NCBI GenBank assembly: GCA_963843575.1
Contig: CAWJKZ010000011.1
Span: 106,341 to 170,340 of the forward strand
Direction: 5' to 3'
DNA length: 64,000 nucleotides
DNA from: an uncultured Acidobacteriota bacterium
GTDB taxonomy: Bacteria > Acidobacteriota > UBA6911
Part shown: positions 6,342 to 39,075 of the stretch, one piece after another
Position numbering within the stretch: the first letter of the stretch is position 1
Layout of the letters: each line of letters opens with the position of its first letter
Made by a program: the position numbers and the translations under genes
Notes under the pieces: generated by a model
Seen by the model: only the letters and a program-made list of their open reading frames with translations
Databases searched by the model: none
Told to the model about the DNA's origin: nothing

Positions 6342-6453
6342 ACGCCAACGTATTTGTCAGGACGCGGATGCGCGCGGATCCCCACAGATCGACCTGGCGA
6401 CAGGCGGCGGTCGATCCGCGTGAATCCGTTGGATCCGCGGAATCTGCGTTCTG
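6342..6453 (-). repeat. ATCCGCG/GATC REP-like repeat, copy 1 of a ~110-bp inverted pair
   Basis: Its reverse complement aligns almost base-for-base with 38905-38996. Both give the same spurious peptide MRADPHRSTWRQ.VDPRESVGS.ESAFC on opposite strands. Confidence 0.75.
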
Positions 6454-6533
6454 TTCTTGCTTTTGTCTTTCATCGCCCGGGTTGTTCTGCGTCCTGAAAA
6501 AATGCGTCAGCCCGGACCCACTACAATGGGGCG

Positions 6534-8438
6534 CTATTCCGGATCGATTACCGCCTCCGCATATTCCCCGATTCGTCTGCCGTTGATGGTGAGGTCGGCC
6601 GTGACCACCCGGCGTCCCTTGCCCACGCTGCGCAACTCGAACGGCAGCGCGATCCCGGATTTGGGCGGAATCGTCACGGTCCTGTCGGCCGAGGCGCACG
6701 TGACACCCTGCGGGCAGCTTGAGCCGGATCCGAACCAGCGCCGGCCTGAACAGGTGGTTGCGCACCCGCAGCTCCAGGTCGACCGCCCGGCCCGGTTCGG
6801 CGATCGTCCGGTACGGGTACAAGTGGCACCAGCGGTAATCGACGCCGAAGTTCGGGTCGGGTTGATCGACGAGCGACGTCATGACTTCCCTGAGCTGCCG
6901 CGCCCAGCCGAGGAAGCCCTGGAGGTCTTCGCGCGTCGGCGAGTACTCCTCGGTGTGGGCAGGGCAGACGAGGTCGGGCATGGTGTCGAGCATCGTCTGG
7001 GCGCACCGTATGAAGCCCCCGTCCAGGAAGTACTCGTTCTGCGGCACTAGCGGACCGTTGCGCACCTTGCCGGGGTACTTCTTGTTCCAGGTGTTGTCGC
7101 CGGTGAAGAGCACCTTCTTGCCGTCGATGGCGACCAGGAGCCCCTGGTGGAACTCGGTCTGGCCCGGCAGGTGGAGGAACTCCATCGAGTACTCGTGCCA
7201 GTGCAACCTTCTCGCGTCGCGCACGCACGCGGTCGGCTGGGATCGGAAACGGGATCAGGCAGGGCAGTCGGAATCGCGCCGGGATGCTCGAGGATGTCGC
7301 GCATGTTCTCGAACACCCAGACTCGCGTGTCCTCCGGCAGCAGTTCGTGCGTGCGGATGATGTGGTCGTCGTGGTAGTGGCTGAACGAGACCGCGTCGAT
7401 CCTCTTCACCCCGAAACCGGCTCTTCAGCTCGTCGATCCGCGAGCGGTCGACGTAGCCGTAGTCGTACAGGAAAGCGCTCCCGCTGTCCGACAGGATGGC
7501 GTAGCAGTTCGCGCCGCACGAAGACGAGGTGCGGCAGGATCTGCCGCACCTCCTGTTGCACCCGGTGGAGTTCATTCGGCACCAGCATGTCGCGGAGGAC
7601 GGCATAGACGCGCCGGTTTGCCGCCATGGCCGCGCGTGGATCCGCGATCGGGTCTCCCTGGCGCCGGCAGGAGCCAGTCCGGCTGCTCGCTTCTCGAGGG
7701 CCGCGAAGGCTCTTCTCGGACGCATCGATCCCCTGAGTGAACCCGTAGTAGTCCCAGTGCAGGTCGAACCAGTTGGGCACCTTGCCGGTCCCGGAGATCA
7801 GGTTTCCCGTGAAGGCGGTCTTCCGGCCGTCGACCTGAACGACAAACGAAATCGCGTGCTCCGTCGGGCCGGGCGTTTCGACGACCTTCAACTCGATAGC
7901 CTCGCCACGACACCACGTCCCCCGCGTTCAGCCTGCGGTCCACCCGGACGCTCTTCCGGAGCGTGTTCCAGTGCGAACGGCAGTTGTAGTTGATGTAGAG
8001 CTTGAGATTGTCCCAGAACTGCTCGACTTTCTCGAAGTGTCCCGCCTCCTGCGCCGGGACGGCCACCTGGAATGCATAGTCCTGCAGGTCGCAGAGTCCC
8101 TGCGCCTGATCGCGGTGGTGGTGGGTGAGAAGGACCTGCTCCACCCGGTCAACGCCGAGGGCAGGGAGCTTCTTCAGGACGTCCCCGGACCCGAAGCCGA
8201 CCAGGAGCGCGGTGCGCCCGTCGCGCAGCACATAGACGTTGCAGGTATCCTCGTAGACGGCCAGGTGCTCGCTCAGGTTCTTCACGGCCCCGGATGGGCG
8301 GAAGTCGCGCTCGTGTCTGCGTGCGGGGTCCGCGGGGAAGGGTGGAAGCGGCCGAGGGGCAAGATCGCGGCGCGTCTGGGCGAACGCGACGAATGAGACG
8401 CACAAGATGAGAACGGCCGGGAATGTCCGTCGCTTCAT
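6534..8438 (-). pseudogene. MBL-fold metallo-hydrolase region (one or two tandem genes) with multiple frameshifts
   Basis: N-terminus MKRRTFPAVLILCVSFVAFA (signal peptide) with THHHRDQ (HxHxD) motif; a second MBL motif SHYHDDH further downstream; TPGHT-like TPGPTEHAISF. Protein-like sequence hops between at least 5 reading frames before the true C-terminus ...GEYAEAVIDPE* at 6534. Confidence 0.55.
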
Positions 8439-8497
8439 GGTAGGTTCTCCGCTTTTTGCTGGACCTGTATAGATCGGACGCGGCTTGTCACCAACTG

Positions 8498-10977
8498 TCA
8501 TTCTCTGTTTTTTAGTCCGCGTGGATCGGCGTGAATCTGCATCCGACCTGCCCTGTCGTGATCGTACCGGAGTGCGAACACCTCCGCCCTGCCCAGGTCG
8601 GAACGCGTTCCGCCGAGCACCATGAGCACGAGGTCGTGTCCGGGATCGTACGTCCAGGCCCGGTTCTGGCTCACCAGGTCGGACGCCTGCCTGCCCGGCG
8701 GCGCGGCAATCCCGAGCTTGTGCCAGCGGTTTTCGCCCACGTGGTACGCATACAGCGCCGGAGCCTGCCTGCCCGCGGGGGAACCCGCGGTGAGCATCAC
8801 GTCCCACTTCGGGAGGTAGACCGCTTCCCGGAAGCAGACGGGAGGTTTACCGCCGGCACCTTCGGCGAACCGGGGCAGGATCTTCTCCCACCTGCTACCG
8901 GGCAACCTGTAAACCCAAAGCTCGTCCTGCTGCGGCCCGCCGCCGTGCAGTATCAGCTGGTCGCGCCTGGAGTCGTAGACGAGCGCCGTCATCTCGTAGA
9001 GGTTCTGCGGCCACGGCCCGGGATTCGCCAGCTTGCGCCACTCCCGGCGAGCGACATCCAGCAGGTACACGGAATTGGGCGCGTTCGTCTTCACCTTCGC
9101 TTCGACCATGTCCCAGTAGTGATCGACGCCCATCACACCGTGAGGCGTAGTGACGGTCAGGTCGAGTCCTGGCACGCCGGAGCACAGCACCTCGGTTCGT
9201 TCGGTCGACGGGTCGTAGGTGGTCGTGACCCACTTCCGGTAGGACGATCTCGTGAAAGCCTCGCCGGCGCCCAGATCCGGGTTCCGGGGCTCGATTCCGC
9301 GCAACGGCTCCGGTTCGTAGCCGGCGGTCAGCAGGATGGTCTTGGTGTTTACGATGAGTTTGCTCACGGGATCGTAGGCGTAGACTTTGCGGCCGTGGCG
9401 CACGAACGGCACCCCGCCGAACGTCACCCCCGCCGCATTGATGCCGCGGTCCCACGCCCGCTCCGGGTACTCGGCGACGACCGGGCTGGCGATCCAGGTG
9501 TTCTGCTCCACGTCGTAGAGGTCGTAATCGGACCCGCCATATCCGCAGTGTCCGCCGCCCCAGTAGACAATCCGGCCCTTGTCCGTGTCGAACGCACACG
9601 AGCCCCAAGTCCGCAGCACGCCCGGCCGGCCCGCCCCGTCGAAATGAACCCATTGGTTCAGGGGCATGTTCCGGATACGCTCGGCCTGCCGTCGCGCACG
9701 CTCCGGGTCCGGTTGCGTGCCCGCGGTAGCCTCCTCCACGGTGCGCTTCGGCATGTCTTGCCGCGGTTGCGGCTGGACGCTTGCGTCCAGGAGCCCCTCG
9801 CGCCGGACTCTGAATCCCCAGGTCGTACGCACGGGGTAGATCTCGTTGCAGGACATCCGGTCGCCTCTGGACTTCTCGGCGGTCGTCAGGATGATGAGGC
9901 TCTCTTGCTCCCGCGGCATGAGATCGGCAGCGACATGCCACCCGGTGGGGACTTCGCCTTTGAGTTTCATCCAGCGGTCCGCCGGGGCGTCGTACGCCCA
10001 CATGTCGGCGAGGTCCTCGCGGTTGTATCCGCCGCCGATGATCACCCACCCGGTGCCGGGGTCGTATACGGCGAAATGACCGGCACGCGGTGGCGGGCTT
10101 CCAGCCGCCCTGGACTGCCTCCACCGCCGGCCGCGCATGTCGTAGATCCAGGTGTCGGCCAGGTAGCGGCTCTGGCCGTCCCCCCCGAACATCACCATGA
10201 CTTCGTTTTTCGTGTCGCAGACCAGCCGCGTGCTCATCCGCGGGGGAGGCTCGATCCCCGAATCCAGGGCGCGCCAGCGCGAGCTCGAACACTCGAACAG
10301 CCAGGTGCCTGTGTACCCCACCAGCCCGCCCCCCGGGCCCTTTTCGGCCACGTGCCCCCCAGCGGCGAGCACCATTTCGTCGTTCAGCGCGTCGTAGGCG
10401 AGCGTCGCCGCACTCACCGGGGGCGGACCCTGGGCGTTTGGGGCCGCATCGGCCCACTTGCGGGCGCGCACGTCATAGGAGAACGTCCTGCCGCCGGTGA
10501 AATAGATCATTCGGGCGCGCCTGGAGTCGTAGGCCACCTGGTCGAACACGATGTTCAAGTCCGGGCGCAGCACGCCCTCGCGCATTTTGAGCTGCGGGCG
10601 ATAGCTGCCCGTGGTGATTCCCTGGTAGGCGCTGCACTCGTGGACCGGCGGCGGCTGGCTGCGCCATTCGTCCCGCTTCTCGAACGGATACTGGCTGACC
10701 CACCTGCCCACGTTCGGGTCGAACGCCACCACGTCGTACTCCTTGTTGCCGCTCCAGGGCTCTTCGGGGTTGCCGTAAAACTCCGTCACGTGACCCATGT
10801 AGCCCCAGAGCAGGAAATAGCCGCCGCCGTCGTCGACGAAGCGGAAGGCGCTGCCGCGCCGCGCGCCTTGCGGGTCCTGGGCGATCCGCGTCCAGGTGTT
10901 CACGGCGATGTCAGCCGGCCCGCCCGTGCTCAGAAGCACGGCAACGAAGGGAAGAAACCAGCAGAGATATCGGGGCA
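8498..10977 (-). CDS. Kelch/galactose-oxidase-like beta-propeller protein, secreted
   Basis: 826 aa from MPRYLCWFLPFVAVLLSTGG (signal peptide). Repeated Kelch-like blades (VYDPGTGWVIIGGG, WTYDPGHDLVLMVLGG). Confidence 0.65.
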
Positions 10978-11094
10978 TAGGTTCCGTCCATTTCCGTTGA
11001 TTACGTGTGAAAGATTCACCTAGCCTGAGTCCGGTTTCGATCCGTGTCAAGACCTGGTCGATAATCGTGGGTGGGCGAGTAGGTATCCAGGACG

Positions 11095-11164
11095 CTGATG
11101 CACGCGGATGCACGCAGATTGTGACTGATCTGCGTGCATCCGCGTCCATCCGCGTCCTCAACAA
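11095..11164. repeat. ATCCGCG REP-like hairpin
   Basis: GCACGCGGATGCACGCAGAT-(9 nt)-ATCTGCGTGCATCCGCGTCC inverted repeat followed by CATCCGCGTCCTCAACAATG. Confidence 0.7.
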
Positions 11165-11261
11165 TGTAGTTTTGCAGCATTCGGGATTAACGCTCGCCCC
11201 CGGGCCGGGGCTACAATCGTTGTGCCCTGTTTTCCCGTCTGCCAATTCGGAAGGAGCCTCT

Positions 11262-13558: not shown

Positions 13559-13599
13559 CGCCTGCGGACCGGCTGAGGATATATACTGTGCGGGAGAGT

Positions 13600-18495: not shown

Positions 18496-18539
18496 TTCGG
18501 CGCCCCTCCAAAAGCGGCCGACTCTGCTCAATCAAGTGG

Positions 18540-18567
18540 GTCCGGGCTTCAGCCCGGACGTTTTTTA
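18540..18567 (+). terminator. Rho-independent terminator-like hairpin (unit 1)
   Basis: GTCCGGGC-TTCA-GCCCGGAC perfect 8-bp GC-rich stem followed by GTTTTTTAAT. Confidence 0.5.
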
Positions 18568-18675
18568 ATCTGATTTATGTGGCGACGGGCGCACGTTATA
18601 GCGACCGCAAACAGCGTCCGGGCTGAAGAGGCTGTTCAACGGTTGAACCGCCCGCCCTGCCCGTAAGACAAGTGG

Positions 18676-18703
18676 GTCCGGGCTTCAGCCCGGACGTTTT
18701 TTG
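18676..18703 (+). terminator. Rho-independent terminator-like hairpin (unit 2)
   Basis: Same 8-bp stem followed by GTTTTTTGAT. The palindromic reverse module at 18749-18768 could terminate the minus-strand gene ending at 18797. Confidence 0.5.
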
Positions 18704-18796
18704 ATCTGACTTATGCGGCGACGGGCGCACGCTATAGCGACCGCAAACAGCGTCCGGGCTGAAGCCCGGACCCACTTGTATCTTGTCCTCTTCCAG

Positions 18797-19799: not shown

Positions 19800-21917
19800 T
19801 TAAAAGAGGTTCGGGAGGTATTCCAGCTCATCGGAGAACGGCTTTGCGGCCCCCGAAGCGACCTCGTAGGCTGCCTCGTGACTTGCGATGGCCGCCGAGC
19901 CCAGCTCTTCGTAGGGACGGTTGCACACGTCGAGGAAGCCGATGTTGTAGTTCTCCCCGTCGAAGCGGCCCAGGGCGGACTCGTCGTAGAGCGTGAACCA
20001 GTGAGCCCCCACGCACACGGGATTCGCCGCGGCGTCCTCGAGATACACGCGGTACGCTTTCCCCCGATCCACCTGGTTCTTGAGATGCCCGATTCCCGAG
20101 GAGGGCAACCCCACGTCCAATGCGCCGAAGTGCCACTCGCCGATCATTATGGGCATTTTCAGCATCGCGTGGATTTCTTCGGTCTGGGCCCGCGGCACCT
20201 TCTTCTGATAACAGTTTATGCTGAAGACGTCAAAAGAGCGCATCCCCTCGACGGCCCAACGGGGCGGCACGCCCGCCCAGCGCATCCCGAGGTTGAGGTG
20301 GGCGGGATCGATCTTCCTGCAGGCCTCCGACAGGGCACGGAAGTAGGTATCCGCCATCCTCACGCTGAATTCCTGCAGGTCCGCCCTGGCTCCAGGCGTG
20401 AAGATGCCCTCCCATCGTCCCGACGCGACCCGCTGGAAGCTCGTCCTGACGCCCCATGCCGCCGACAGCTTCGCGGCGTCGCCGTGCTTCTTGCGCAACC
20501 AGTCCGCGAGTACCTTGCGGGCCGGGCAGTCCGGGGTGTTGTAGAGCATGCCCGCGGCCGGCAATTCCGAGGAGAAACCCCATTCGGGCTCGTTCATCAG
20601 GAAGTAACCGACAAATGCGGGGTCGTCCTTCGTGTCGGCAAGCTGGCCGGCATATTCCGCCACGTCCCGCGCGAAGGCGGGATGAAAAACATCGGGAAAA
20701 TCCCGATACACGTATGGCACCCTCGTTCCGCGAAAATCCAGCGGGCGGACGTAAGGGAAGCGGGCGTCGCGCGCAAAGTTCCACTCCGACCAGTTCCCGA
20801 CCGTGTTGAAGCGCAGCCGTTTCATCTGCGCCAACGCAATCCGGGCCCACTTGTCCCTCCAGCCCAAGGCGCCGAAAGCCCGGATGAAATTGGCCGCCAG
20901 GTAGTTGACGGACTTCTCGTTCCTGCGCCCCTCCCCGCGAAGCGGGCCGAAAATGTCGGCAAATTCAGCTCGGCCTTCCGGGAGCCAGGCCAGGGCCGTT
21001 TCCAGGCCCGCGTAGCTGGCCGCGGTATCGACCCGGACGCAGTCCAGGCCCGCGGACCAGAAGGCATAGCCGTCCGGATCGACGAGCCACCAGCGCCGCC
21101 CGTCGTTGTGCGTGCGGAAGAAGCCTGCGCCGTCGGTAAGCTTGCGCGCCTGCCATCCGCCCCACCGCGTGAACGAGGCGGGCCAGGCCAGCGTGGGCGC
21201 TTCCTCCAGTTGCGATTGAAGCCGCCCTTTCAGGGCGTTGATCGTGCGCGTCTTCCCAGGCCATTCGTGCAGCGTGCTCTGACCCAGCTCATCCAGGAGC
21301 ACCCCCCTGGTGAGAACCGGTTTATCGATCCGCGGCGCTTCTGTCTCGACGGCGGCAAACGGTGTCATACACCAGCGCGCCGCCTTGGGCCCTTTGCGCT
21401 GGACCACGAACTTCATGCGGTCCACCTTGGAGAGCTCGATGCGGTCTCCGCCGCAGCGCGGCTTCAGGAACGCACCTTCGCGTTCGATGCCCCAACGATT
21501 CTGGTCGACGAGGCTCAGCGGCATCCGCACCCGGAACGAACACTGATTCAGGCCGCCAAACTGGAATGTGAACCTGCGGCCATCGTCCCCTTCCTGGAGC
21601 CAGAGCTGAAACATGACCATGCTGTTGCCGTCGAGGAGCATGTCTGCGGTGAGATACTTCGAACGGGCCAACGCGCCGCGATCGAACCGGCATTGAAAGC
21701 CGTCGCCGGCGGACTGTGCCGTGAACCAGACGGCACCTTCCAGCGGAGCGCCGCCCGCCTCCCTGGTGATGCCGCCGATCATGGATTGGGGATCCAGACG
21801 AATGCCGCCAGGCGACGGCGGCCGCGAGCGCGCGGCCAGCGCGGCCCCCGCGGAGATCGCGGTCACCCAGAGAAACTCCCGTCGATCGAGCCGGCAAAAC
21901 GAGTGTTTTGAGCGCAT
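19800..21917 (-). CDS. TAT-exported TIM-barrel glycoside hydrolase (GH5/GH42-like)
   Basis: Leader RLDRREFLWVTAISAGAALAA; catalytic-type motifs FLMNEPEW and MIGEWHFGALD; 705 aa. Likely co-transcribed with the 18797-19752 gene. Confidence 0.65.
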   Translation of the reverse strand: MRSKHSFCRLDRREFLWVTAISAGAALAARSRPPSPGGIRLDPQSMIGGITREAGGAPLEGAVWFTAQSAGDGFQCRFDRGALARSKYLTADMLLDGNSMVMFQLWLQEGDDGRRFTFQFGGLNQCSFRVRMPLSLVDQNRWGIEREGAFLKPRCGGDRIELSKVDRMKFVVQRKGPKAARWCMTPFAAVETEAPRIDKPVLTRGVLLDELGQSTLHEWPGKTRTINALKGRLQSQLEEAPTLAWPASFTRWGGWQARKLTDGAGFFRTHNDGRRWWLVDPDGYAFWSAGLDCVRVDTAASYAGLETALAWLPEGRAEFADIFGPLRGEGRRNEKSVNYLAANFIRAFGALGWRDKWARIALAQMKRLRFNTVGNWSEWNFARDARFPYVRPLDFRGTRVPYVYRDFPDVFHPAFARDVAEYAGQLADTKDDPAFVGYFLMNEPEWGFSSELPAAGMLYNTPDCPARKVLADWLRKKHGDAAKLSAAWGVRTSFQRVASGRWEGIFTPGARADLQEFSVRMADTYFRALSEACRKIDPAHLNLGMRWAGVPPRWAVEGMRSFDVFSINCYQKKVPRAQTEEIHAMLKMPIMIGEWHFGALDVGLPSSGIGHLKNQVDRGKAYRVYLEDAAANPVCVGAHWFTLYDESALGRFDGENYNIGFLDVCNRPYEELGSAAIASHEAAYEVASGAAKPFSDELEYLPNLF

Positions 21918-21967: not shown

Positions 21968-22010
21968 CTTTGATCTGCGTTGATCCGCGTCCATCCGCGT
22001 CCGAAAACGT
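21968..22010. repeat. ATCCGCG REP-like element
   Basis: TGATCTGCGTTGATCCGCGTCCATCCGCGTCCGAAAACG downstream of the GH gene. Confidence 0.6.
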
Positions 22011-23782: not shown

Positions 23783-23814
23783 GACGAGGCAGTCAGGAGT
23801 TGGCAGGAGGTCTT

Positions 23815-26265
23815 ATGTCGAACTCAACAATCCGGTTTTGGTTTGCCCGGCCTTTCTGGTGTGTGCTGACGGTTCTCGGGGTCGTTCTGTGCTCGTCGTG
23901 GACTCCCGGGGCATCCTCGCAGGGCGCACCCGCGCAGTCCGATCGCGTCAGCCTTCGGGTCGATGTGGAGCTGATCACGGTCGAGGTCATTGTCCTCGAC
24001 AAAAAGGGACGCCCCATACCGAACCTCAAGCAGGAGGATTTCCAGCTCTTCGAGGACGGAAAGCGGCAGGAGATCGTCACCTTCGCCGAAATCTCCGACG
24101 AGCAGAACCGGGAGGTTCCCACCAGCCTCGCGGACCTCGACGAGGGGGGGCCAAACCGGGGCAAGGTGGTGCTGATTCTCTTCGACGACAGCCACATCAC
24201 CAACGCGCAGCTCTATAACTCGAGGGAATCGGCCGAGAAGTACGTGAAAGAACAGATGCGGCCGAGGGACCTGTTCGCCGTCGCTTCTTACGGCATGTCC
24301 CTGAAGCTACTACAGAACTTCACGCACGACGCCGCCAAGGTGACGGAGGCCATTCGTCGGCCGACCACCTCCTTCGCCAACCAGGCTGCCGAAATGCGGG
24401 GTGGCGGTGCGATGATGCCCGGCCAGGAGTCGATGGGCCGAGGGTCGATGGACCGGGGATCCATGAACCGGTCGAGACCCGACGTGTCGAGCCCGGAGAT
24501 CCGGATGCGGGTCATGTCGTTTTTCCGGGCGCTCAACGTCCTCAGTTCCGCGGTCTCCCCGGTAAGAGGCCGGAAAGCCGTCATCATCTTCTCCGAGGAC
24601 TTCTCGGCAAGCTCCGAGATCCAGACCGAGTTGATGAACACGATAAACTCCGCGAAAAAGGCAAATGTTTCCTTCTACACCGTCGACGTGAGAGGGCTCA
24701 ATACCGGTCCGTCGGTCGGTATTCCCGACCAACGCGGCCGGTCCGGCGCCGACGCGTTGCGGACCGCGTTCTCCCCGGCGCGCTCCATCTTTAGTCGGCT
24801 CGGGTCCGGCATGGTCCTGCCGGGTGCGGGAACCGGGAGCCTCGCGGCATTCTCGTTCGGCCAGCAGGGAGGCGGCCAGACCGGAGGATCGGGCGGGTCC
24901 GGAGGGTCTGGCGGGTCCGGTGGATCTGGCGGGTCCGGTGGATCGGGGGGCTCCGGAGGCTCCGGGACGGGCGGGAGCGGCAGCGGCGGCACAACCCCTG
25001 GCGGGGGGTCCACGGGAGCGAATCCGGGCGGAAACGCCGGGAACAATCCCGGTACCAACACGAACCCCGTGTCGCCCAACTTCAACCCGAACAATGGCGG
25101 CCGGGACTTCAATCGGGAGCAGCAGGACTTCGCCCGATTCTCGCAGCAGACCATCGACAACATGTTGAGGAGCCTGGCGGGCCAGACCGGCGGGGTGGCG
25201 ATATACAACACCAGCGATTTCAACGGGCGGCTCAACGAGGTCACCCGGGAGCTGAACAACTACTACGTTCTCGGATTTCAGTCGAGCAACCCGAAGCGGG
25301 ACGGCGCGTTCCGCAAGCTCAAGGTCAAAACCGAGGTGAAAGCGGAAGTGCGGCACCGGGACGGTTACGTCGACCCGCGTCCCCTTGACGTGCTCGCCGG
25401 GTCCAAAGGGGAAAAGTCGATGCTGAGCGCGATTGCGTCGCCTGCCCTCGCCGTCACGCTTCCGGTAACATTCAGCGCCGCCTACTTCTATGACTCGCCG
25501 GCATTGGCCCGGATACCGGTTACCGCCAGGATCGCCACCTCGGCCCTCGAGCTCAAGAAAAAGGGAGGGCAGCTCGTGGGCGATCTCAACGTGATGGGCG
25601 TCGCCTACGGCGAGGACGGCGGCATCTCGGCCCGCTTCAGCGAGACGCTGCACGTAGCCATAGACAAGGACAACGAGCCCGCCTTCCGTCAGAGACCCCT
25701 CGATTACCGAAACTACTTCAAGCTGCGGCCGGGAAAGTACCAGCTCAAGATCGCGACCGCGGACGAGAAGGGTAAGGTCGGTTCGGCGGAGCAGGCGCTC
25801 GTCGTCCCACCCTCGAACCCGGGCGAATTGGCGGCGAGCAGCCTGGTGCTTGTGCAGCAGGTCGCGCAACTTCCGGCACTGATCCAGGATCTGCAGGTCA
25901 AACTGCTGGATGACAGCGATCCCCTGATCTACAAAGGGGTGCAGATCACCCCCGCGGCGGAGAGCCAGGTGCCCGTGGGGAGTCCCATCAACATCGTCTT
26001 CAAGCTCTACAACCTGAGCGACAACGCGCAGGAACGGAAGCTGACGGCCGAGGCCCGCCTGACCGATGAGAAGGGCTCAATCCACACCCTGCCGCCGATA
26101 CCTCTGGAACCTTACCTGTATCCGACCGGGAAAACCGAGGCCATGGTCGGCCTCCGCCTGACCTTCGCGGAGGCGCTTGCCGGAACATACAAACTGGAGA
26201 TCGCGACTTCAGAGGGCACGTCCAGCCGCTCCATCTCCCTCCACACCACCCTCCTGTACAAATAG
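23815..26265 (+). CDS. VWFA-related Acidobacterial-domain protein with Gly/Ser-rich linker (paralogue)
   Basis: RBS GGCAGGAGG. Same N-terminal module (VDVELITVEVIVLDKKGRPIPNLKQEDFQLFEDGKRQEIVTF). Internal low-complexity linker (GGS)n..GTGGSGSGG..PGGNAGNNPGTNTNP at ~24870-25110, encoded by a 9-bp-period DNA repeat. Confidence 0.8.
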   Translation: MSNSTIRFWFARPFWCVLTVLGVVLCSSWTPGASSQGAPAQSDRVSLRVDVELITVEVIVLDKKGRPIPNLKQEDFQLFEDGKRQEIVTFAEISDEQNREVPTSLADLDEGGPNRGKVVLILFDDSHITNAQLYNSRESAEKYVKEQMRPRDLFAVASYGMSLKLLQNFTHDAAKVTEAIRRPTTSFANQAAEMRGGGAMMPGQESMGRGSMDRGSMNRSRPDVSSPEIRMRVMSFFRALNVLSSAVSPVRGRKAVIIFSEDFSASSEIQTELMNTINSAKKANVSFYTVDVRGLNTGPSVGIPDQRGRSGADALRTAFSPARSIFSRLGSGMVLPGAGTGSLAAFSFGQQGGGQTGGSGGSGGSGGSGGSGGSGGSGGSGGSGTGGSGSGGTTPGGGSTGANPGGNAGNNPGTNTNPVSPNFNPNNGGRDFNREQQDFARFSQQTIDNMLRSLAGQTGGVAIYNTSDFNGRLNEVTRELNNYYVLGFQSSNPKRDGAFRKLKVKTEVKAEVRHRDGYVDPRPLDVLAGSKGEKSMLSAIASPALAVTLPVTFSAAYFYDSPALARIPVTARIATSALELKKKGGQLVGDLNVMGVAYGEDGGISARFSETLHVAIDKDNEPAFRQRPLDYRNYFKLRPGKYQLKIATADEKGKVGSAEQALVVPPSNPGELAASSLVLVQQVAQLPALIQDLQVKLLDDSDPLIYKGVQITPAAESQVPVGSPINIVFKLYNLSDNAQERKLTAEARLTDEKGSIHTLPPIPLEPYLYPTGKTEAMVGLRLTFAEALAGTYKLEIATSEGTSSRSISLHTTLLYK

Positions 26266-26370
26266 GGGACGGACCAGGAGAAGCGCTTTATTGTCAATTG
26301 TTTATAGATAATTCAGGCTCCAAATTGGCCCTTATTTGAGGTTTTTGGGCCTGTTTTTCTCAATTAAGCC
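26265..26370 (+). repeat. Novel ~108-bp element, copy A (head GGGGACGGACC, tail hairpin)
   Basis: Starts on the stop codon of the VWA gene; tail CTTATTTGAG-GTTTTTGGGCCTGTTTTTCT-CAATTAAG. Confidence 0.7.
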
Positions 26371-26400
26371 ACCAGGCAGTGGCACCGGCGGTGATTCGTT

Positions 26401-26507
26401 GCCTTATCTTAAAAAAAGAGGCCCAAAAATCCGAAATAAGGCTCTCTTTTCGCAGGAATATTCTCGTAAAGAGTTACAATAGTTAGCTTTGTTTAGGTCC
26501 GTCCCCT
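26401..26507 (-). repeat. Novel ~108-bp element, copy D (inverted)
   Basis: Reverse complement: GGGGACGGACC...GCCTTATTTCGGATTTTTGGGCCTCTTTTTTTAAGATAAGGC. Confidence 0.7.
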
Positions 26508-31833: not shown

Positions 31834-31840
31834 GCAGTAA

Positions 31841-31946
31841 TGGGGACGGACCAGGACAACCCACGCTTTTGCAGTGAATTGTAGGGAATTTCGACCCTAA
31901 AAACGGGCTTATTTCACGTTTTTGGGCCTGTTTTCTGCAAATAAGC
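31841..31946 (+). repeat. Novel ~108-bp element, copy B
   Basis: GGGGACGGACCAGGACAACC...GGGCTTATTTCACGTTTTTGGGCCTGTTTTCTGCAAATAAGCGG. Confidence 0.7.
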
Positions 31947-33355: not shown

Positions 33356-33411
33356 GAGAGACCGGGGGAAGTACTCGAAGCGGAGTCCCTGCCTTTCTTG
33401 AAGAGGTCAGG

Positions 33412-34428
33412 ATGAACGGATTCCAGCGAATCCGGGCTGCACTGCGCGGTGAGGCGCCGGACTGCACGCCTGTGATGCTGCACAGCTTCATGCTTGCCGC
33501 CGCGGAATCCGGCATTCCGATGTGGCGCTATCGACGGGACCCGGCGGAGATCGTCCGCTGCCTGATCGAATTTGTGGAGCGGTACGGCACCGACGGGGTA
33601 TTGCTCGACATCGACACCGCAACGCTCGCGGGCGCACTCGGGATCCCGGTCGAGTACCCCGACGACCAGCCGGCTGTCTGCCGGCGGCCGAAACTGGCCG
33701 ATGTGTCCGAGGTCGACCGGTTGGAACCGGTCGATGTCCTCGCCTTTCCGGGCGTGCAGGTGTGGCTCGAGGCGGCGAGGCTGTTGAGCCGCTACTTTCG
33801 GGGCGAAATATACGTGCGCGCGAACTGCGACCAGTGCCCGTTCTCTCTTGCCTCCATGATGTGCGGCTCGGAACCCTGGATGCTTGCGTTGGTCGACCCG
33901 TCCAGGCACGTGCACGTGCGCCGCCTGCTCGCGTACTGCACTCGGGCAACGGTCCAGTTTGTCCGGCTCATGTCCCAAACGGGTGCCGACATGCTCTCCA
34001 ACGGCGATAGCCCCGCGGGCCCCGAACTGATCTCTCCGCGATTGTACCGGGAATTCGCGCTGCCGTACGAAACGCAGGTCGCAGCCGCGGCCCACGAGAC
34101 GGGGCTGCCGTACGCCCTTCACATATGCGGATCGACCGAGCAGATCCTGCAGGACATGGTCTCGACCGGCGCCGAGGCGCTCGAACTGGATTACCGGACC
34201 GACTGCCGCATGGCCTGCTCCCTTCTGAAGGGAAGGGCTGCCTTCATCGGGAACATCGACCCCACGGGCGTCCTGGCCTTGGGTGATCCGCGGCTGGTCG
34301 AGGCGAAGACGCGCGAGCTGGTTGCTGCCTTCGAAGGCAATCCCCGCTTCATCCTGAACGCGGGCTGCGCAATCCCCCCCTCGACTCCACCCGCCAATGT
34401 GCGGGCCCTGATCCGGGGACGGACCTAG
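33412..34428 (+). CDS. Uroporphyrinogen decarboxylase (URO-D) family protein / MtaA-CmuA-like methyltransferase
   Basis: URO-D-like TIM-barrel sequence over the full length (MNGFQRIRAALRGEAPD..., ALHICGSTEQILQDMVSTGAEALELD). Confidence 0.7.
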   Translation: MNGFQRIRAALRGEAPDCTPVMLHSFMLAAAESGIPMWRYRRDPAEIVRCLIEFVERYGTDGVLLDIDTATLAGALGIPVEYPDDQPAVCRRPKLADVSEVDRLEPVDVLAFPGVQVWLEAARLLSRYFRGEIYVRANCDQCPFSLASMMCGSEPWMLALVDPSRHVHVRRLLAYCTRATVQFVRLMSQTGADMLSNGDSPAGPELISPRLYREFALPYETQVAAAAHETGLPYALHICGSTEQILQDMVSTGAEALELDYRTDCRMACSLLKGRAAFIGNIDPTGVLALGDPRLVEAKTRELVAAFEGNPRFILNAGCAIPPSTPPANVRALIRGRT

Positions 34429-34583
34429 AAAAGAAGGACGCAGATGAACGCGGAGAAACGCGGATCAGCACTGACGATTCGCTCTGCCAGCGTTTGTCCG
34501 CGTCCCACTACGCTTGCGGTTGATTGGGAACGTCATCAGGCTCTAGTATGAGCCGGGATCAAACACGTATTGAGGAGGGGCGT

Positions 34584-35834: not shown

Positions 35835-35870
35835 TTGAACCCACTGTAAACCGCCCTCCAGCGCGGTCGT

Positions 35871-35980
35871 GGGGACGGACCACGGCAAGCCATTATCTCA
35901 CTATCAATTAGCAGATTTCAGGACCAGGAAACAGGCCTTATTTCGTGTTTTTGGGGGCGGTTTTCTTGAGATAACGGCGG
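35871..35980 (+). repeat. Novel ~108-bp element, copy C
   Basis: GGGGACGGACCACGGCAAGCC...GGCCTTATTTCGTGTTTTTGGGGGCGGTTTTCTTGAGATAACGG, 37 bp after the stop of the molybdoenzyme gene. Confidence 0.7.
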
Positions 35981-36352
35981 GGGACATGTCTGTCGCGGCC
36001 ATGCTGATGAGCGGAACGCCGCCGGCAGTGCTGCGCAAAGGCCCGCCCTCGCCGCTCGTGGAAGAGAGCGACGAGGAGAAGAACCCAGCGACAGAGATCT
36101 AGCCCAAGGGCGGGCGGCCCGGACCGGGAAACGCCGAATCGGTGATCATTGACTTCGAAGGCGTGCAGAACCGCATCGTGGCCGTTTCCATTCCGTCCGG
36201 CGATCACTCGAACCTGCGCGCGGCTGCTTCCGCAACCCTTGCCTTGGTTTTGCTTTTACCTTTTTTTCTTATCTTCCGTTGCTTTTTCTGGCCTATGCTG
36301 GGGGACATCAGCCTTCACAATCCTGATATTTGTCATCAAACGGGAGACCGCA

Positions 36353-37819
36353 ATGCAGAGAGAGGACACCAGCAATTCAGAAAGAAACACGACGACGCGC
36401 CGACGTTTTCTCACCCAGACCGCGGCAGCACTGGCGGGCGCTTCCACGCTGACGGGTCTCGAGGCGGCGGGGAAGCAGGCGACCAGAGCGGTAGGAAGGG
36501 TGTTGGGGGCCAACGACCGCATCAATCTGGCATTTATCGGAAACGGGATGCAGTGGCAGGGGCTGCTTCGGGGGTTCCAGGCACGCAAGGACCGGCAGGG
36601 AGACATCGAGTTCGTGGCTTGTTGCGACGTCTGGGAGCCGCGGCTGAAGAATGCCCAGGAAAAGACCAAGGCGGAGAAGACCTATCGCGATTACCGCGAG
36701 GTACTGCAGCGGCCGGACATCGACGGCGTCGTGGTGGCCGTGCCCGATCACTGGCACTTTGCGATCGCCAGGGACGCATGCCTGGCAGGCAAGGACGTCT
36801 ACCTCGAGAAACCCATGGTCCGCACCATCGAGCAGGGCGCCCAGCTCAACGAAATCGTCAACCAGACCAAGCGCATCCTCCAGGTGGGCGGCTCCGGTCC
36901 TGCAAGCGGGTTGAACTGGAAGATCAACGAATACATCAAGGCCGGCAGAATGGGCAAGATCCTGTGGGGCCTGATCAGCTACAACCGGAACACGGACGCC
37001 GGCATGTGGGATTACCCGATCCCCGGGATCGGTGAAACGCCTTGGCCGGACGCCGATTTCAGCGCCAAGAGCTGCGACTGGAACATGTGGCTCGGTTCGA
37101 CGCGCAAGCGGTCGCTCAGCGCGGAGCGTTACTTCCGTTGGAGGAAGTACTGGGACTACGCGACCGGCAACGCGGGCGACCTTCTCTACCATCAACTTGG
37201 CACCATGTCGACGATGATAGGGTTCGATTTCCCGACTCAGGTCGTGGGCGCAGGCGGCATTTTCATCCAGAAGGACCGCGAGGTCCCCGACACCTACATG
37301 ACCATGGTCGAGTACCCCGGCGAGTACTGCGTGAACATGATTTCCTGCATGGGGAACGCCGACTCCGTGCCGATCACGGTTTATGGGAACTGGGCCACGT
37401 TGCGGCTCGGCGGCCCGGGCGCCGCCGCGGGACAGGGCCAGGGGGCCATGGGAGATCAGGCCCGCGGCGCAGATCAGGCCGGGGCCGGACGATCCGGGGG
37501 CGCCCGCCCACGCGCGGTCGCCAGCGTCACCGCGCAACCGCAGTTCCTCAACAAGTTCAAAGAGGCCAACGACGGAAAAACCGAGGTGACCATCGAGGCC
37601 CCCGCGCAGAGCGAAAGCCTCGGAGAGAACTGGCTCAACTGCATGCGTTCCCGGCAAAGCCCTGTGTACGACGTGTTGAGGGGCTACCAGGTGCTGGTCG
37701 CGATCATGCTGGGCGTGGATTCCTACCGGGAGGGGAAGGCGCTGGCCTTCGACCCCGTCGGCCGCAAGGTGCTGCCCAAGCCGCCGGCCAGGAAGATGTA
37801 CCCGCCCGCCGAAACATAA
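36353..37819 (+). CDS. Gfo/Idh/MocA family oxidoreductase, TAT-exported
   Basis: Leader TTRRRFLTQTAAALAGAST; Rossmann INLAFIGNGMQ, EKPMVRT motif. Includes an unusual Gly/Ala/Gln-rich insert (GPGAAAGQGQGAMGDQARGADQAGAG) at ~37410-37500. Confidence 0.75.
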   Translation: MQREDTSNSERNTTTRRRFLTQTAAALAGASTLTGLEAAGKQATRAVGRVLGANDRINLAFIGNGMQWQGLLRGFQARKDRQGDIEFVACCDVWEPRLKNAQEKTKAEKTYRDYREVLQRPDIDGVVVAVPDHWHFAIARDACLAGKDVYLEKPMVRTIEQGAQLNEIVNQTKRILQVGGSGPASGLNWKINEYIKAGRMGKILWGLISYNRNTDAGMWDYPIPGIGETPWPDADFSAKSCDWNMWLGSTRKRSLSAERYFRWRKYWDYATGNAGDLLYHQLGTMSTMIGFDFPTQVVGAGGIFIQKDREVPDTYMTMVEYPGEYCVNMISCMGNADSVPITVYGNWATLRLGGPGAAAGQGQGAMGDQARGADQAGAGRSGGARPRAVASVTAQPQFLNKFKEANDGKTEVTIEAPAQSESLGENWLNCMRSRQSPVYDVLRGYQVLVAIMLGVDSYREGKALAFDPVGRKVLPKPPARKMYPPAET

Positions 37820-38009
37820 GGTCCGCGAGGGAAGACTCACCGCCCCGATGCAGAGGCCGCCGAGATCTGGTTCCTCTCTCGGCGGCCCGTGCGCGACGTT
37901 CGGCGCGGTCGTTCTGGACCGGCGCAAGGGCAGGAGCGGCTGGTAAGCCGGCGCCGCCGCGCGGCCGACGACCCACACAACGAGGACGAGGAAAGCAAGG
38001 AGCACGACT

Positions 38010-38846
38010 ATGATTGACAGGCAGCGCTTCAGCCTGAACCGGATCATTTCGCCATCGCTGACCTTGGGAGAGTTCCTCGAACTCACGGCCCGCTTGGGTC
38101 TGAGCAAGGTGGAGCTCAGGAACGATCTTGATGCCCGCGACCCCGTGGACGACATGAAACCTGCCGCCTTCGCCCGTATGGCGGCGGATCACGGTGTCGG
38201 AGTCATTTCCATCAACGCGTTGCAGAAGTTCAACCTCGCGGCAGCTCGGGCCAAGGCCTCCGACGAGCTCAAGAGGCTGCTCGACCTTTCCGCCGCGATC
38301 GGCTGCAAGGCCGTGGTTCTGTGCCCGAACAATGATGCGGCGGATGCCCGAAGCCACGCACGGCGGATCGGGGAAACGATCGACGCCCTTGCAGCTTTCG
38401 GCCCTCTGTTCCGATCCGCCGGCATCCTCGGGTACGTGGAGCCCCTGGGATTCGCGATCTCCTCGCTCGCTTCCCTCGTCGTTGCACAGGACGCGATCCG
38501 GGAATCCGGCCAATCCTGCTTCAAGGTCGTGCACGACACATTTCATCACTTCATCGGGCCTGACGACCAAAGCGTCCTGGGCACGACGTACGGCATCTCC
38601 ATGACGGGTCTCGTTCACGTCTCGGGCGTCGAGGCGAACATCCCCAGAGACGCCTGCCGGGACGAGCACAGGGTGCTCGTCGGGCCCGCCGATACGATGA
38701 AGAGCAAGGAACAGATCCTTCACTTGGAAAAGCTCGGCTATGCCGGCGACTATTCGTTCGAACCCTTCTCGCCCGAAATCCAGAAACTCGGGAAGAGCGA
38801 ATTGGCCGCTGCCTTGCGGCAGAGCCTCGACTACCTCCTCGCCTGA
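38010..38846 (+). CDS. Sugar phosphate isomerase/epimerase (xylose-isomerase-like TIM barrel)
   Basis: 278 aa with typical AP-endonuclease-2/TIM-barrel pattern (GCKAVVLCPNN, GYVEPLG, HDTFHHF). Confidence 0.75.
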   Translation: MIDRQRFSLNRIISPSLTLGEFLELTARLGLSKVELRNDLDARDPVDDMKPAAFARMAADHGVGVISINALQKFNLAAARAKASDELKRLLDLSAAIGCKAVVLCPNNDAADARSHARRIGETIDALAAFGPLFRSAGILGYVEPLGFAISSLASLVVAQDAIRESGQSCFKVVHDTFHHFIGPDDQSVLGTTYGISMTGLVHVSGVEANIPRDACRDEHRVLVGPADTMKSKEQILHLEKLGYAGDYSFEPFSPEIQKLGKSELAAALRQSLDYLLA

Positions 38847-38904
38847 CAGGGCTGCCCTGGGTGGTCAGGGCTCGCGCAAGAATAAATGAAAAACAAATGC
38901 CAAA

Positions 38905-39075
38905 CAGAACGCAGATTCCTCGGATCCAACGGATTCACGCGGATCGACCGCGTCCTGTCGCCAGGTCGATCTGTGGGGATCCGCGCGCATCCGCGTCCTG
39001 AAAAATACGTTGGCGTGGTCACGCGGATGTACGCAGATCCGCGCCAATCCGTGAACCCGTCAAATCCGCGTTCTG
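38905..39075 (+). repeat. ATCCGCG/GATC REP-like repeat, copy 2 of the inverted pair plus extra REP modules
   Basis: 38905-38996 is the reverse complement of 6342-6453; it continues with CACGCGGATGTACGCAGATCCGCGCCAATCCGTGAACCCGTCAAATCCGCGTTCTGCTC. Confidence 0.75.

What the first reader, a model, noticed from the sequence alone, without database searches (positions are those of the whole stretch)
6342..39075. Inverted ~110-bp REP-type repeat pair 32 kb apart, part of a GATC/ATCCGCG palindromic element family with at least 9 loci
6342-6453 and 38905-38996 are near-perfect reverse complements (same artefactual peptide on opposite strands). They belong to a larger family of short palindromic units built from CGCGGATC / GATCCGCG(T) motifs. 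Other loci are 11095-11164, 21968-22010, 34445-34500, 42461-42500, 47388-47666 (elaborated into a 280-bp MITE-like palindrome), 51408-51445 (overlapping a stop codon) and 39000-39075. Canonical 3' end is CATCCGCGTCCTGAAAAA(C/T). The embedded GATC suggests interaction with a Dam-like methylase or a REP-associated tyrosine transposase (RAYT). Inverted copies at this distance are substrates for inversion of the intervening 32-kb segment.
Basis: seen in the sequence. Interest (0 to 1): 0.55.

Follow-up and report, generated by a model that had tools for sequence, protein, structure and literature searches.

The report
Dispersed heptad hairpins linked to GxxExxY
The inverted repeat pair is real and belongs to a dispersed family of intergenic hairpins built from the heptamer CGCGGAT repeated every 10 bp; in bacteria of several phyla the same arms bracket a small nuclease gene of unknown function (GxxExxY), so the window's copies look like gene-less derivatives of an apparently undescribed cassette, not classical REP/RAYT elements.

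Summary
Positions 6342-6455 and 38903-39016 are 114-nt reverse complements (96%). The motif CGCRGAT-N3-CGCRGAT occurs 18 times at 8 loci, against 0.26 expected. All loci are intergenic or at the extreme 3' end of a gene.

The unit is not a GATC palindrome. It is an invariant heptamer CGCRGAT at 10-bp spacing with a variable 3-nt spacer, 2-4 units per arm and outer end TTCAGGAC. Rfam has no matching family.

The same arms occur in Acidobacteriota, Chloroflexota and Bacteroidota genomes, in metagenome contigs of 47-69% GC, and in tailed-phage contigs. In seven independent loci they bracket a GxxExxY (PF13366/TIGR04256, PD-(D/E)xK) gene. Of the 120 best homologues, 88 start with an MNAD-like N-terminus (56 exactly MNAD = ATGAACGCNGAT), so the start codon lies inside the arm.

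More distant GxxExxY genes carry different inverted periodic arms. The window has no GxxExxY gene, transposase or RAYT.

Best reading: MITE-like, gene-less derivatives of a hairpin-bounded GxxExxY cassette. The heptad arrays are probably protein recognition sites. The mobilising enzyme is inferred, not shown. The Dam and RAYT ideas are unsupported, and inversion of the 32-kb segment is possible but untestable here.

The parts
6342..6455 (.). Copy A: full hairpin element. It has a 16-nt unpaired head (ACGCCAACGTATTTGT), a left arm CAGGACGCGGATGCGCGCGGATCCCCACAGATCGACC, a loop, and a right arm ending ATCTGCGTTCTG. It lies between convergent genes.
   Evidence: I1; DNA fold -32.7 kcal/mol, z -3.85. 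The GC3 profile shows the minus-strand ORF stops being coding near 6720.
6486..6503 (+). Solo outer-end remnant TCTGCGTCCTGAAAAAA.
   Evidence: Read from the sequence. Weak: a single unit only.
8513..8544 (+). Degenerate ATCNGCG-type array (72% to the reference copy).
   Evidence: D2; 2 mismatches. Weak.
11089..11158 (.). Near-perfect hairpin: 3 heptad units per arm and an 8-nt loop. It lies between divergent genes (Kelch protein start about 10978 on the minus strand; plus-strand gene start about 11262).
   Evidence: I12, 94%; z -8.85.
21971..22005 (-). Single arm of 3 units with no inverted partner, in a divergent intergenic region. On the minus strand it reads GGACGCGGATGGACGCGGATCAACGCAGAT and ends 55 nt upstream of the ATG at 21917.
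   Evidence: (D2).
34435..34505 (.). Hairpin with an intact left arm (3 units) and a decayed right arm (GTCCGCGTCC), between the co-directional hemE (URO-D) and molybdopterin oxidoreductase genes.
   Evidence: (z -2.7).
38903..39016 (.). Copy B: the reverse complement of copy A (96%), between convergent genes (AP_endonuc_2 gene ending at 38846 on the plus strand; ORF ending at 39085 on the minus strand).
   Evidence: (I1).
39017..39075 (.). Second, degenerate hairpin directly abutting copy B.
   Evidence: The fold is not significant (z -1.1).
42455..42511 (.). Degenerate hairpin (CCCGGAT/CACGGAT/CGCGGAC units) overlapping the last codons and the TGA stop of the MFS ORF 42451-43917 on the minus strand.
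   Evidence: z -3.1; GC3 falls to 0.22 in the last block.
47388..47659 (.). Composite element. The heptad arms 47388-47429 and 47627-47659 bracket a nested, unrelated 180-bp perfect palindrome (47431-47613). It lies in a divergent intergenic region upstream of the nhaA-I riboswitch.
   Evidence: I10, I13, I14, I16; -129 kcal/mol, z -15.5.
51410..51448 (+). Single arm plus the conserved tail (GGATCCGCGCGCATCCGCGTCCTGAAAAACAGGTTG). It encodes the last residues (..ADPRASAS) and the TGA stop of the sat/cysC gene.
   Evidence: (D9, I5). C-terminus comparison with relatives that end ..GYIGTGGAA*.

Best explanation
The elements are gene-less, MITE-like members of a widespread family. Its full-length form is a roughly 450-550-bp cassette in which two inverted arrays of CGCRGAT heptamers bracket a GxxExxY (PF13366, PD-(D/E)xK nuclease fold) gene.

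Each array has 2-4 units at a 10-bp period. The outer end is TTCAGGAC, and the arm often supplies an AGGA Shine-Dalgarno-like motif and the ATG.

Shown:
- the family exists;
- it is spread across phyla;
- it is physically coupled to GxxExxY genes;
- the heptamers are invariant while the spacers vary;
- two 96%-identical gene-less copies in the window show recent duplication;
- insertions fall at gene ends and operon junctions.

Inferred:
- the heptad arrays, all on one face of the helix, are sequence-specific protein recognition sites that define the element ends;
- the inverted arrangement lets single-stranded DNA or the transcript fold into a panhandle;
- gene-less copies arose by internal deletion and are copied in trans;
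- the most economical candidate for the trans factor is the cassette's own GxxExxY nuclease, but no transposition chemistry is known for it.
For: Family and statistics.

Cross-genome presence with the same outer end:
- Terriglobia MAG (6 loci), Anaerolineales MAGs, Pyrinomonadaceae and Lewinellaceae;
- 13 metagenome contigs of 47-69% GC;
- phage contigs carrying portal and protease genes.

Coupling to GxxExxY:
- TIGR04256 hits next to the arms in L007, L022 and L025;
- arms on both sides of the gene in L007 and L025, L026 and L034, L041 (Acidobacteria MAG) and L047 (Anaerolineae), and L058 (variant CACGGAT arms);
- 88 of the 120 best homologues start with an MNAD-like N-terminus, M[NDS..][AT]D, 56 of them exactly MNAD = ATGAACGCNGAT;
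- some ORFs run out into the 3' arm.

Arms co-vary with protein subfamily: L059 carries a different inverted periodic array.

Heptamers carry about 2 bits per position, while spacers are variable and only about half complementary. In 15 hand-picked, in-register arm pairs I counted 44 of 90 spacer positions as complementary (my count from the table; logo).

Whole cassettes fold with the 5' arm paired to the 3' arm around the ORF (z -4.1 and -4.9).

The gene-less hairpins L004 and L008 keep the cassette's third unit and first codons (..TTTCAGGATTTAA), matching the AATCAGGATTTTAA of cassette L025.

The protein is a confident PD-(D/E)xK fold (pLDDT 92.6). Its best structural matches are Cas4, lambda exonuclease and Hjc.

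Insertion footprint: the sat/cysC C-terminus is replaced by arm-encoded residues and stop. A relative with 79%-identical Sat/CysC has no arrays in 21.7 kb.
Against: - There is no GxxExxY gene or remnant in the window, and the rest of this genome could not be read. Co-occurrence in this organism is therefore unproven.
- No target-site duplication and no empty or filled orthologous site were found.
- PD-(D/E)xK nucleases cut but do not join DNA, so a copy mechanism is missing.
- Most arms are gene-less: 3 of 25 pattern-derived loci, 0 of 6 viral loci and 0 of 8 window loci carry the gene.
- In one phage, arrays are single, in the sense orientation, and sit just upstream of ribosome-binding sites. 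This hints at a cis-regulatory use.
- The L022-like GxxExxY subfamily mostly lacks arm-encoded N-termini. One Acidobacteriota locus (L045) has hairpins only 3' of the gene.
Confidence: 0.6

Rival explanations
1. Classical REP/REPIN elements maintained and copied by a RAYT (IS200/IS605-like Y1 transposase) encoded elsewhere in the genome.
For: - The elements are extragenic, palindromic and multi-copy, often as inverted doublets.
- A conserved unpaired head lies beyond the hairpin in copies A, B and C, as in HUH substrates.
- Acidobacteria encode Y1 transposases ('TIRYTs') flanked by long TIRs, one of which belongs to a repeated family (PMC3733652).
Against: - There is no GTAG tag. The CGTC inside GCGTCC is part of the paired outer unit, and stems are 25-45 bp built of 10-bp modules, not 8-9 bp with 4-5-nt loops as in the CGTC families.
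- No Y1_Tnp domain occurs in the window or among the Pfam-annotated genes of the fetched contigs.
- The heptamers are identical across phyla, which is unlike lineage-specific REP/RAYT pairs.
- The linked gene is GxxExxY.
Confidence: 0.08
2. The arrays are primarily functional cis-elements, not mobile DNA. They would be binding sites on DNA or RNA for a conserved regulator, or RNase III-type processing stems that control translation or stability of neighbouring genes. GxxExxY would then be just one regulated gene.
For: - The arm contains AGGA-N7-ATG and provides the start codon of many GxxExxY genes.
- Pairing with the 3' arm would occlude it.
- In phage contig UViG_3300033991_000115, five single arrays lie in the sense orientation 13-64 nt upstream of start codons, ending ..CGCGGATCGGAAGGA.
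- The window's 21971 arm also lies in the sense orientation upstream of a gene.
- Heptamer invariance implies a reader protein.
Against: - No common function links the flanking genes.
- Copies sit in convergent, divergent and tandem intergenic regions alike.
- Decayed copies and a nested palindrome are present.
- A close relative has none in 21.7 kb.
- Two 96%-identical copies, including loop and tail, sit at unrelated loci.
- There is no Rfam family and no T-run for termination.
Confidence: 0.17
3. The hairpins are an independent repeat family, and the GxxExxY gene is a separate selfish gene that homes into hairpin loops. The arms would be its target, not its ends.
For: - The loop can hold unrelated cargo: the 180-bp palindrome at 47431-47613.
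- Gene-less hairpins far outnumber gene-bearing ones.
- PD-(D/E)xK homing endonucleases exist; I-Bth0305I is among the weak structural hits.
Against: - The ORF uses the arm's ATG and often its first 7-10 codons.
- Distant GxxExxY subfamilies carry their own different arms, which points to co-inheritance as one unit.
- Gene-less L004 and L008 retain cassette-internal sequence.
Confidence: 0.12
4. Chance similarity, low-complexity sequence or a purely local duplication.
For: The window is GC-rich, and the 7-mer alone is only about 3-fold enriched.
Against: The double unit occurs 18 times against 0.26 expected. The same element occurs in unrelated genomes.
Confidence: 0.01

Closest known systems
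REP/BIME elements and REPINs with RAYT transposases (E. coli, Pseudomonas; GTAG-tagged REPs)
   Same: Short extragenic palindromes, many copies, frequent inverted doublets forming larger hairpins, and a conserved unpaired head next to the hairpin.
   Different: There is no GTAG tag and no RAYT association. The arms are modular arrays of a 7-mer at a 10-bp period with free spacers. The sequence is conserved across phyla, and the linked gene is a PD-(D/E)xK nuclease, not an HUH transposase.
CGTC-tagged REPs (Di Nocera et al. 2013, PMC3733652)
   Same: The outer end contains CGTC (GCGTCC), and that paper found no dedicated transposase. They are also found in several phyla, including Bacteroidetes.
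   Different: CGTC REPs have 8-9-bp stems, 4-5-nt loops, AT at the first stem positions and a CCA tail. Here stems are 25-45 bp built of heptad units, and the CGTC is base-paired.
MITEs such as Correia/NEMIS, ERIC/IRU and RUP
   Same: 50-300-bp non-coding elements with terminal inverted repeats. They insert in intergenic regions and at gene ends, are sometimes co-transcribed, and can alter gene termini.
   Different: No target-site duplication was seen. The matching full-length element encodes no known transposase, only a 120-140-aa nuclease-fold protein.
23S rRNA intervening sequences carrying small ORFs in a long stem (from my own knowledge, not tested here)
   Same: A small ORF is enclosed by long complementary arms that pair in the transcript, which is the architecture predicted for the cassettes.
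   Different: The copies here lie between protein-coding genes, not in rRNA. RNase III processing was not tested.
TIRtrons: Y1 transposase genes flanked by long TIRs in Acidobacteria (PMC3733652)
   Same: A gene is bracketed by long TIRs that also occur as a repeated, gene-less family, in the same phylum.
   Different: The enclosed gene family differs (HUH Y1 transposase versus PD-(D/E)xK). The TIR sequences of that paper were not available for comparison.

Membership tests
REP/REPIN-RAYT system | A 20-40-bp imperfect palindrome with a conserved unpaired GTAG (or CGTC) tetranucleotide at one end. | tested here: not met
   The outer consensus is TTCAGGA|CGCRGAT with no GTAG. The CGTC lies inside the paired unit, and stems are 25-45 bp of 10-bp modules, against 8-9 bp for CGTC REPs.
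REP/REPIN-RAYT system | A RAYT (Y1_Tnp) gene in the genome, flanked by the same repeats. | not testable with these tools
   Only 64 kb of this genome is readable, and it is not in genome contigs. Exact look-ups failed or returned no DNA for window proteins. No Y1_Tnp occurs in the window or among the Pfam-annotated fetched loci.
REP/REPIN-RAYT system | High copy number and extragenic location. | tested here: met
   About 10 loci in 64 kb, all intergenic or at ORF ends.
MITE | Terminal inverted repeats and a small non-coding body. | tested here: met
MITE | Target-site duplication flanking the element. | tested here: inconclusive
   No direct repeat is seen at the ends of copies A and B or of cassettes L026, L034 and L041. 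The boundaries are not known to the base.
MITE | A full-length element with the same ends that encodes the transposase. | tested here: inconclusive
   The same ends bracket a gene in 7 loci. However, the product is a PD-(D/E)xK protein of unknown function, not a recognised transposase.
Heptad-array / GxxExxY cassette family (defined here) | Outer end GGACGCRGAT followed by at least one more CGCRGAT at a 10-bp period. | tested here: met
   16 hits against 0.20 expected. The consensus is the same as in the cassettes.
Heptad-array / GxxExxY cassette family (defined here) | A GxxExxY (TIGR04256/PF13366) ORF between the arms. | tested here: not met
   A profile search of the six-frame translation finds nothing (best E 2.4). 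tblastn is also negative. The window copies are therefore gene-less.
Intrinsic terminator | A GC-rich hairpin followed by a 3' T-run. | tested here: not met
   The 3' flank is an A-run (CTGAAAAA) and the 5' flank a T-run, the reverse of a terminator on either strand.
Any Rfam RNA family | A score at or near the gathering threshold. | tested here: not met
   the only true hit is nhaA-I at 47784-47838, and nothing falls on the repeats.
Dam-target (GATC) element | GATC conserved in the unit. | tested here: not met
   GATC depends on the variable spacer. The commonest spacers are GAA, AAA and TTT.

The most novel reading that the evidence does not exclude
The CGCRGAT heptad arrays are the recognition ends of a previously undescribed, cross-phylum (and phage-borne) selfish cassette. 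Its only gene, the small PD-(D/E)xK protein annotated 'GxxExxY', acts on those ends, for instance on the extruded hairpin or cruciform or on the panhandle, to mobilise the cassette and its far more numerous gene-less hairpin derivatives. This would give a function to PF13366/TIGR04256 and define a mobile-element class that uses neither a DDE, HUH, serine nor tyrosine enzyme.
Probability: 0.3. Interest if true: 0.85.

Novelty: new variant of a known kind. Interest (0 to 1): 0.68.

Why it matters
GxxExxY/PDDEXK_3 proteins are a very large family. Each of two capped searches returned more than 7,900 hits. Their function is listed as unknown and their phylogeny is marked by many horizontal transfers (PMC3424549). 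Neither their coupling to a specific, conserved inverted heptad array nor the array itself appears in Rfam or in the searchable literature.

If the coupling reflects mobility, this is a new kind of small mobile cassette with MITE-like offspring. These offspring shape intergenic regions, gene termini (sat/cysC and MFS here) and operon junctions in soil Acidobacteriota, Chloroflexota, Bacteroidota and their phages.

In practice, the elements create spurious ORFs and peptides (MNADERG.., ..IRVIRVLK) and wrong start or stop calls in annotation. Near-identical inverted copies are also potential rearrangement and assembly break points.

Tried and rejected
- Rfam at gathering and E-value thresholds: no family on the repeats.
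- Literature searches by motif, by 'RAYT Acidobacteria', by GxxExxY/PDDEXK_3 and by the double-unit sequence: only Di Nocera 2013 and Steczkiewicz 2012 were relevant, and neither describes these arms.
- BLAST of the 186-nt region against plasmids and phages: no match.
- Attempts to reach the rest of the genome failed. The window is absent from genome contigs, and exact look-ups of window proteins failed or gave no DNA. The source contig is 172,493 bp in NCBI/ENA.
- Terminator reading: rejected, because the T/A-run polarity is wrong.
- Strand asymmetry in the hairpins: copy A folds better than its complement because of two G·T pairs. Pooled over all arm pairs, however, G·T-type and A·C-type mismatches are equal (203 against 203), so this gives no evidence for an RNA-level strand preference.
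- 'Sense orientation upstream of a gene' as a general rule: it holds for one phage genome and for the window's 21971 arm, but not generally.
- Defence-system membership of GxxExxY: only weak Cas4b-like hits in PADLOC and none in PHROGs.
- Sequence search of the PDB: no hit.
- Target-site duplications: none seen.
Full report
**1. The observation**

The inverted pair exists as described. The repeat finder reports arms 6342-6455 and 38903-39016, 114 nt, 96% complementary, 32,447 nt apart (I1). In an alignment the copies differ at 4 positions, with a longest identical run of 48 nt. Homology starts at ACGCCAACGTATTT, which is 16 nt outside the hairpin, and fades out about 18 nt past the other end. 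A third partial copy at 51413-51448 shares the outer arm and the tail CTGAAAAAnnnGTTG (D9/I5).

Weak remnants also lie at 6486-6503 and 8513-8544. The double unit CGCRGATNNNCGCRGAT (up to 1 mismatch) occurs 18 times at 8 loci against 0.26 expected from dinucleotide shuffles. With the outer GGA included the count is 16 against 0.20.

The 11089-11158 copy is a near-perfect 31-bp stem (z -8.9), and copy A folds with z -3.9. The 47388-47659 composite folds at -129 kcal/mol (z -15.5), because the heptad arms bracket a nested, unrelated perfect palindrome.

**2. Anatomy**

The repeated unit is not 'CGCGGATC'. It is the heptamer CGCRGAT at a strict 10-bp period with a free 3-nt spacer, 2-4 units per arm. 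The outermost unit is preceded by GGA and a less conserved TTCA. One arm therefore reads TTCAGGACGCGGAT-nnn-CGCGGAT-nnn-CGCGGAT, and its partner ends ATCCGCGTCCTGAA(A).

In a logo of 56 arrays from independent loci, the heptamer positions carry about 2 bits, with only R variable. Spacers are diverse: GAA 21, AAA 9, TTT 7, then many others. In 15 hand-picked, correctly registered arm pairs, the cores match far better than the spacers. I counted 44 of 90 spacer positions as complementary (my count from the table). Many 'stems' are thus 7-bp helices separated by small internal loops.

GATC appears only when a spacer happens to supply the flanking base, so it does not define the family.

**3. Context in the window**

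Pfam annotation of about 50 ORFs shows ordinary chromosomal genes: ABC transporter, PQQ/Kelch propellers, NRPS-like adenylation proteins, hemE, GFO/IDH/MocA oxidoreductases, sat/cysC, sulfotransferase, an MFS transporter and others. No transposase, integrase or Y1 (RAYT) domain is present.

GC3 profiles and start-codon inspection place every element between genes, in convergent, divergent and tandem arrangements alike. Two elements overlap the last codons of an ORF. In sat/cysC the arm encodes ..ADPRASAS and the TGA stop. The closest relatives (74-80% identity) end ..GY(I/V)G(T/A)xxxx* and are 7 residues shorter. The MFS ORF likewise ends inside an arm (GGTCCTTGA).

The organism is not identified. 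The named relatives of Sat/CysC are mixed (Acidobacteria, Gemmatimonadetes, Actinomycetota). The only genome in the species collection with several copies of the canonical end is a Terriglobia MAG.

**4. Distribution**

An exact scan of 185,579 species genomes for ATCCGCGNNNATCCGCGTCCTGAA found 12 loci:
- six in one Terriglobia MAG;
- three in Anaerolineales/Anaerolineaceae MAGs;
- one each in a Pyrinomonadaceae MAG and in Lewinellaceae SD302;
- one in a Phyllobacterium, a lone array that may be a chance match.

The window's own genome is not in that collection. The same pattern found 13 metagenome contigs with 47-69% GC. Most show the full palindrome TTCAGGACGCGGAT..ATCCGCGTCCTGAA.

A three-unit pattern found six stretches on four phage contigs. 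These encode portal and head-maturation protease proteins. In contrast, a relative with 79%-identical Sat/CysC (GC 0.71) has no array in 21.7 kb. The family is therefore patchy, cross-phylum and present in phages, which is the signature of horizontally moving DNA rather than a lineage-specific REP.

Neither Rfam threshold gives a family on the repeats. There is no match in the plasmid and phage record collections.

**5. The linked gene**

In three of the 25 pattern-derived loci, the ORF next to the arm is a GxxExxY protein (TIGR04256; E 9e-40, 4e-25 and 7e-10). In L007 and L025 the gene lies between a left and a right arm. L022 is cut by the contig end.

A database search with the L007 protein returned more than 7,900 PF13366 proteins. 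Of the 120 best, 88 begin with M[NDS..][AT]D and 56 begin exactly with MNAD. MNAD is ATG-AAC-GCN-GAT, the repeat unit itself. Others begin MQIRVIRVLK (= ATCCGCGTnATCCGCGTCCTGAAA) or read out into the 3' arm (..NPRHPRS..QINADF). Pfam places the domain from residue 12, so the MNAD segment lies outside it. The structure model has it disordered.

DNA fetched for five proteins confirms the picture:
- Arms flank the gene in L026 (an AT-rich MAG).
- Arms flank the gene in L034 (a Deltaproteobacteria MAG), wedged between hemB and a radical-SAM gene.
- Arms flank the gene in L041 (an Acidobacteria MAG), between PSD1 and DUF1501 genes.
- Arms flank the gene in L047 (an Anaerolineae MAG), with an extra internal arm that can form a local hairpin.
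- L045 (an Acidobacteriota MAG) has two variant CACGGAT hairpins on the 3' side only.

A protein-based sample of viral contigs gave three further patterns:
- L058 (45% identity) has variant CACGGAT/ATCCGTG arms.
- L059 (40% identity) has a different inverted periodic array (..CGCGAAAAGCGCTAAAG / CTTTAGCGCTTTTCGCG..).
- Three AT-rich loci from two distinct phage contexts (L061 and L062 are near-identical), at 32-36% identity, have none.

The architecture is thus conserved, and the arm sequence changes with the protein subfamily.

As single strands, the L041 and L047 cassettes fold with the 5' arm paired to the 3' arm around the whole ORF (z -4.9 and -4.1). The gene-less hairpins L004 and L008 still carry the cassette's third unit and first codons (TTTCAGGATTTAA, against AATCAGGATTTTAA in cassette L025). 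That is what internal deletion of a cassette would leave.

**6. The protein**

The AlphaFold model from 58 sequences is confident (pLDDT 92.6). Foldseek finds Cas4 SSO0001 (E 3e-5), lambda and alkaline exonucleases, and archaeal Hjc resolvases (E 1e-3). The invariant residues include the D...E-x-K core (D73, E83, K85 in P0003).

There is no sequence match in the PDB, only weak Cas4b hits in PADLOC, and none in PHROGs. The one survey that lists PF13366 gives 'function unknown; Prokaryota and viruses; multiple transfers' (PMC3424549).

**7. Interpretation**

Shown:
- a dispersed, cross-phylum family of inverted heptad arrays;
- tight physical coupling to GxxExxY genes, to the point of sharing the start codon;
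- recent duplication of a gene-less copy to two unrelated loci in this window;
- insertion at gene termini and operon junctions.

Inferred:
- (a) The heptamers stay invariant while spacers, and even pairing, vary. They also recur once per helical turn. They are therefore most simply protein recognition sites, not merely a stem.
- (b) The gene-less hairpins are MITE-like derivatives.
- (c) The only consistently linked protein, a nuclease-fold protein, is the best candidate reader.

How copies would be made is unknown. No target duplication or empty site was found, and PD-(D/E)xK enzymes are not known to perform strand transfer.

The main rival is a cis-regulatory or processing role. The arm supplies AGGA-N7-ATG, which the 3' arm would occlude. 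In one phage, single arrays sit in the sense orientation just upstream of ribosome-binding sites. The two readings are not exclusive.

**8.

'REP-type dispersed family' is right in the broad sense. The RAYT link has no support:
- there is no GTAG tag;
- the geometry is not that of CGTC REPs (PMC3733652);
- no Y1 gene was found anywhere I could look.

The complete genome could not be examined, however, and Acidobacteria do encode TIR-flanked Y1 transposases. The Dam link fails because GATC is not conserved. Inversion between the copies is mechanistically possible, given the 48-nt perfect run, but cannot be assessed from one sequence.

**9. Novelty**

As an element in this window, it is a new REP/MITE-like family. 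The heptad-array architecture, its spread across phyla and phages, and its coupling to GxxExxY genes were not found in Rfam or in the full-text library, either by name or by sequence. I rate it a new variant of a known kind, with roughly a 0.3 chance that it represents a new class of nuclease-associated mobile cassette.

Noticed in passing
window 18533-18782; also 6505-6530 and 49460-49499: A second, unrelated hairpin repeat family with core GGGTCCGGGCTTCAGCCCGGAC followed by a T-run. Two 96-nt units (96% identical) lie 136 nt apart at 18533 and 18669, with an inverted copy at 18744-18779. A 90% copy of the adjacent 40 nt lies at 49460. A fragment (GTCAGCCCGGACCCAC) sits next to copy A at 6508. 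There is only a sub-threshold Rfam hairpin hit (mir-1422, 38 bits against 60).
   Followed up: partly
window 47784-47838 (+): An nhaA-I riboswitch-class motif (RF03057; 48.3 bits against a 37-bit cut-off). It is not upstream of a cation transporter. It lies about 340 nt upstream of a sulfotransferase gene (48178-49419), which is followed by sat/cysC (PAPS synthesis). No convincing ORF lies in between.
   Followed up: partly
window 57105-57443 and 62425-62762: A direct repeat of about 340 bp, 5.3 kb apart (300 nt at 99%, preceded by 50 nt at 88%). It covers the 5' parts of two paralogous 138-aa ORFs (57174-57590 and 62493-62909) that have no Pfam match. A further 72-nt repeat (76%) lies at 61033 and 63473. 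The region 52-64 kb has lower GC (0.57-0.60).
   Followed up: no
window 26302-26449 and 31879-31946: An AT-rich palindromic repeat (..CCTTATTTGAGGTTTTTGGGCCTGTTTTTCTCAATTAAGC..) is present as a local inverted pair at 26330-26441, and again in both orientations at 31879-31946. It brackets a 5.5-kb segment (ROK kinase, GFO/IDH/MocA and ribulose-phosphate epimerase genes). GC dips to 0.56 at 26-28 kb.
   Followed up: no
window 6199-7254 (-): The long minus-strand ORF has GC3 of 0.87-1.0 down to about 6720, then 0.5-0.6. It is therefore not coding across copy A. Either the real gene ends near 6700, or it is frameshifted or a pseudogene.
   Followed up: partly
window 24874-24963: An 18-nt tandem repeat (GGCGGGTCCGGAGGGTCT-like, 4-5 copies) encodes a Gly/Ser-rich stretch inside the 821-aa ORF 23800-26265, which has no Pfam match.
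   Followed up: no
L050 2932-2961, 8238-8267, 9016-9045; L053 117-146, 492-521 (phage contig IMGVR_UViG_3300033991_000115): In this tailed-phage genome the heptad arrays are single, with no inverted partner. They are always in the sense orientation and end ..CGCGGATCGGAAGGA 13-64 nt before the next start codon, for example between the portal and protease genes. Some arrays are extended by tandem duplication of TTTTTTGGACGCGGAT. The mobile-hairpin model does not explain this.
   Followed up: partly
L001, L002, L010, L011 (Terriglobia MAG MFD05942.bin.2.344): In this MAG the arms are asymmetric, with 2-3 units against 1. They are fused to another GC-rich module (GCAAAAGCCCTGCAC.. plus the GGGCCCGAAGGGCCC hairpin) and to a conserved tail CTGAAATGTCTTGC. 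This gives a mosaic, BIME-like organisation.
   Followed up: no
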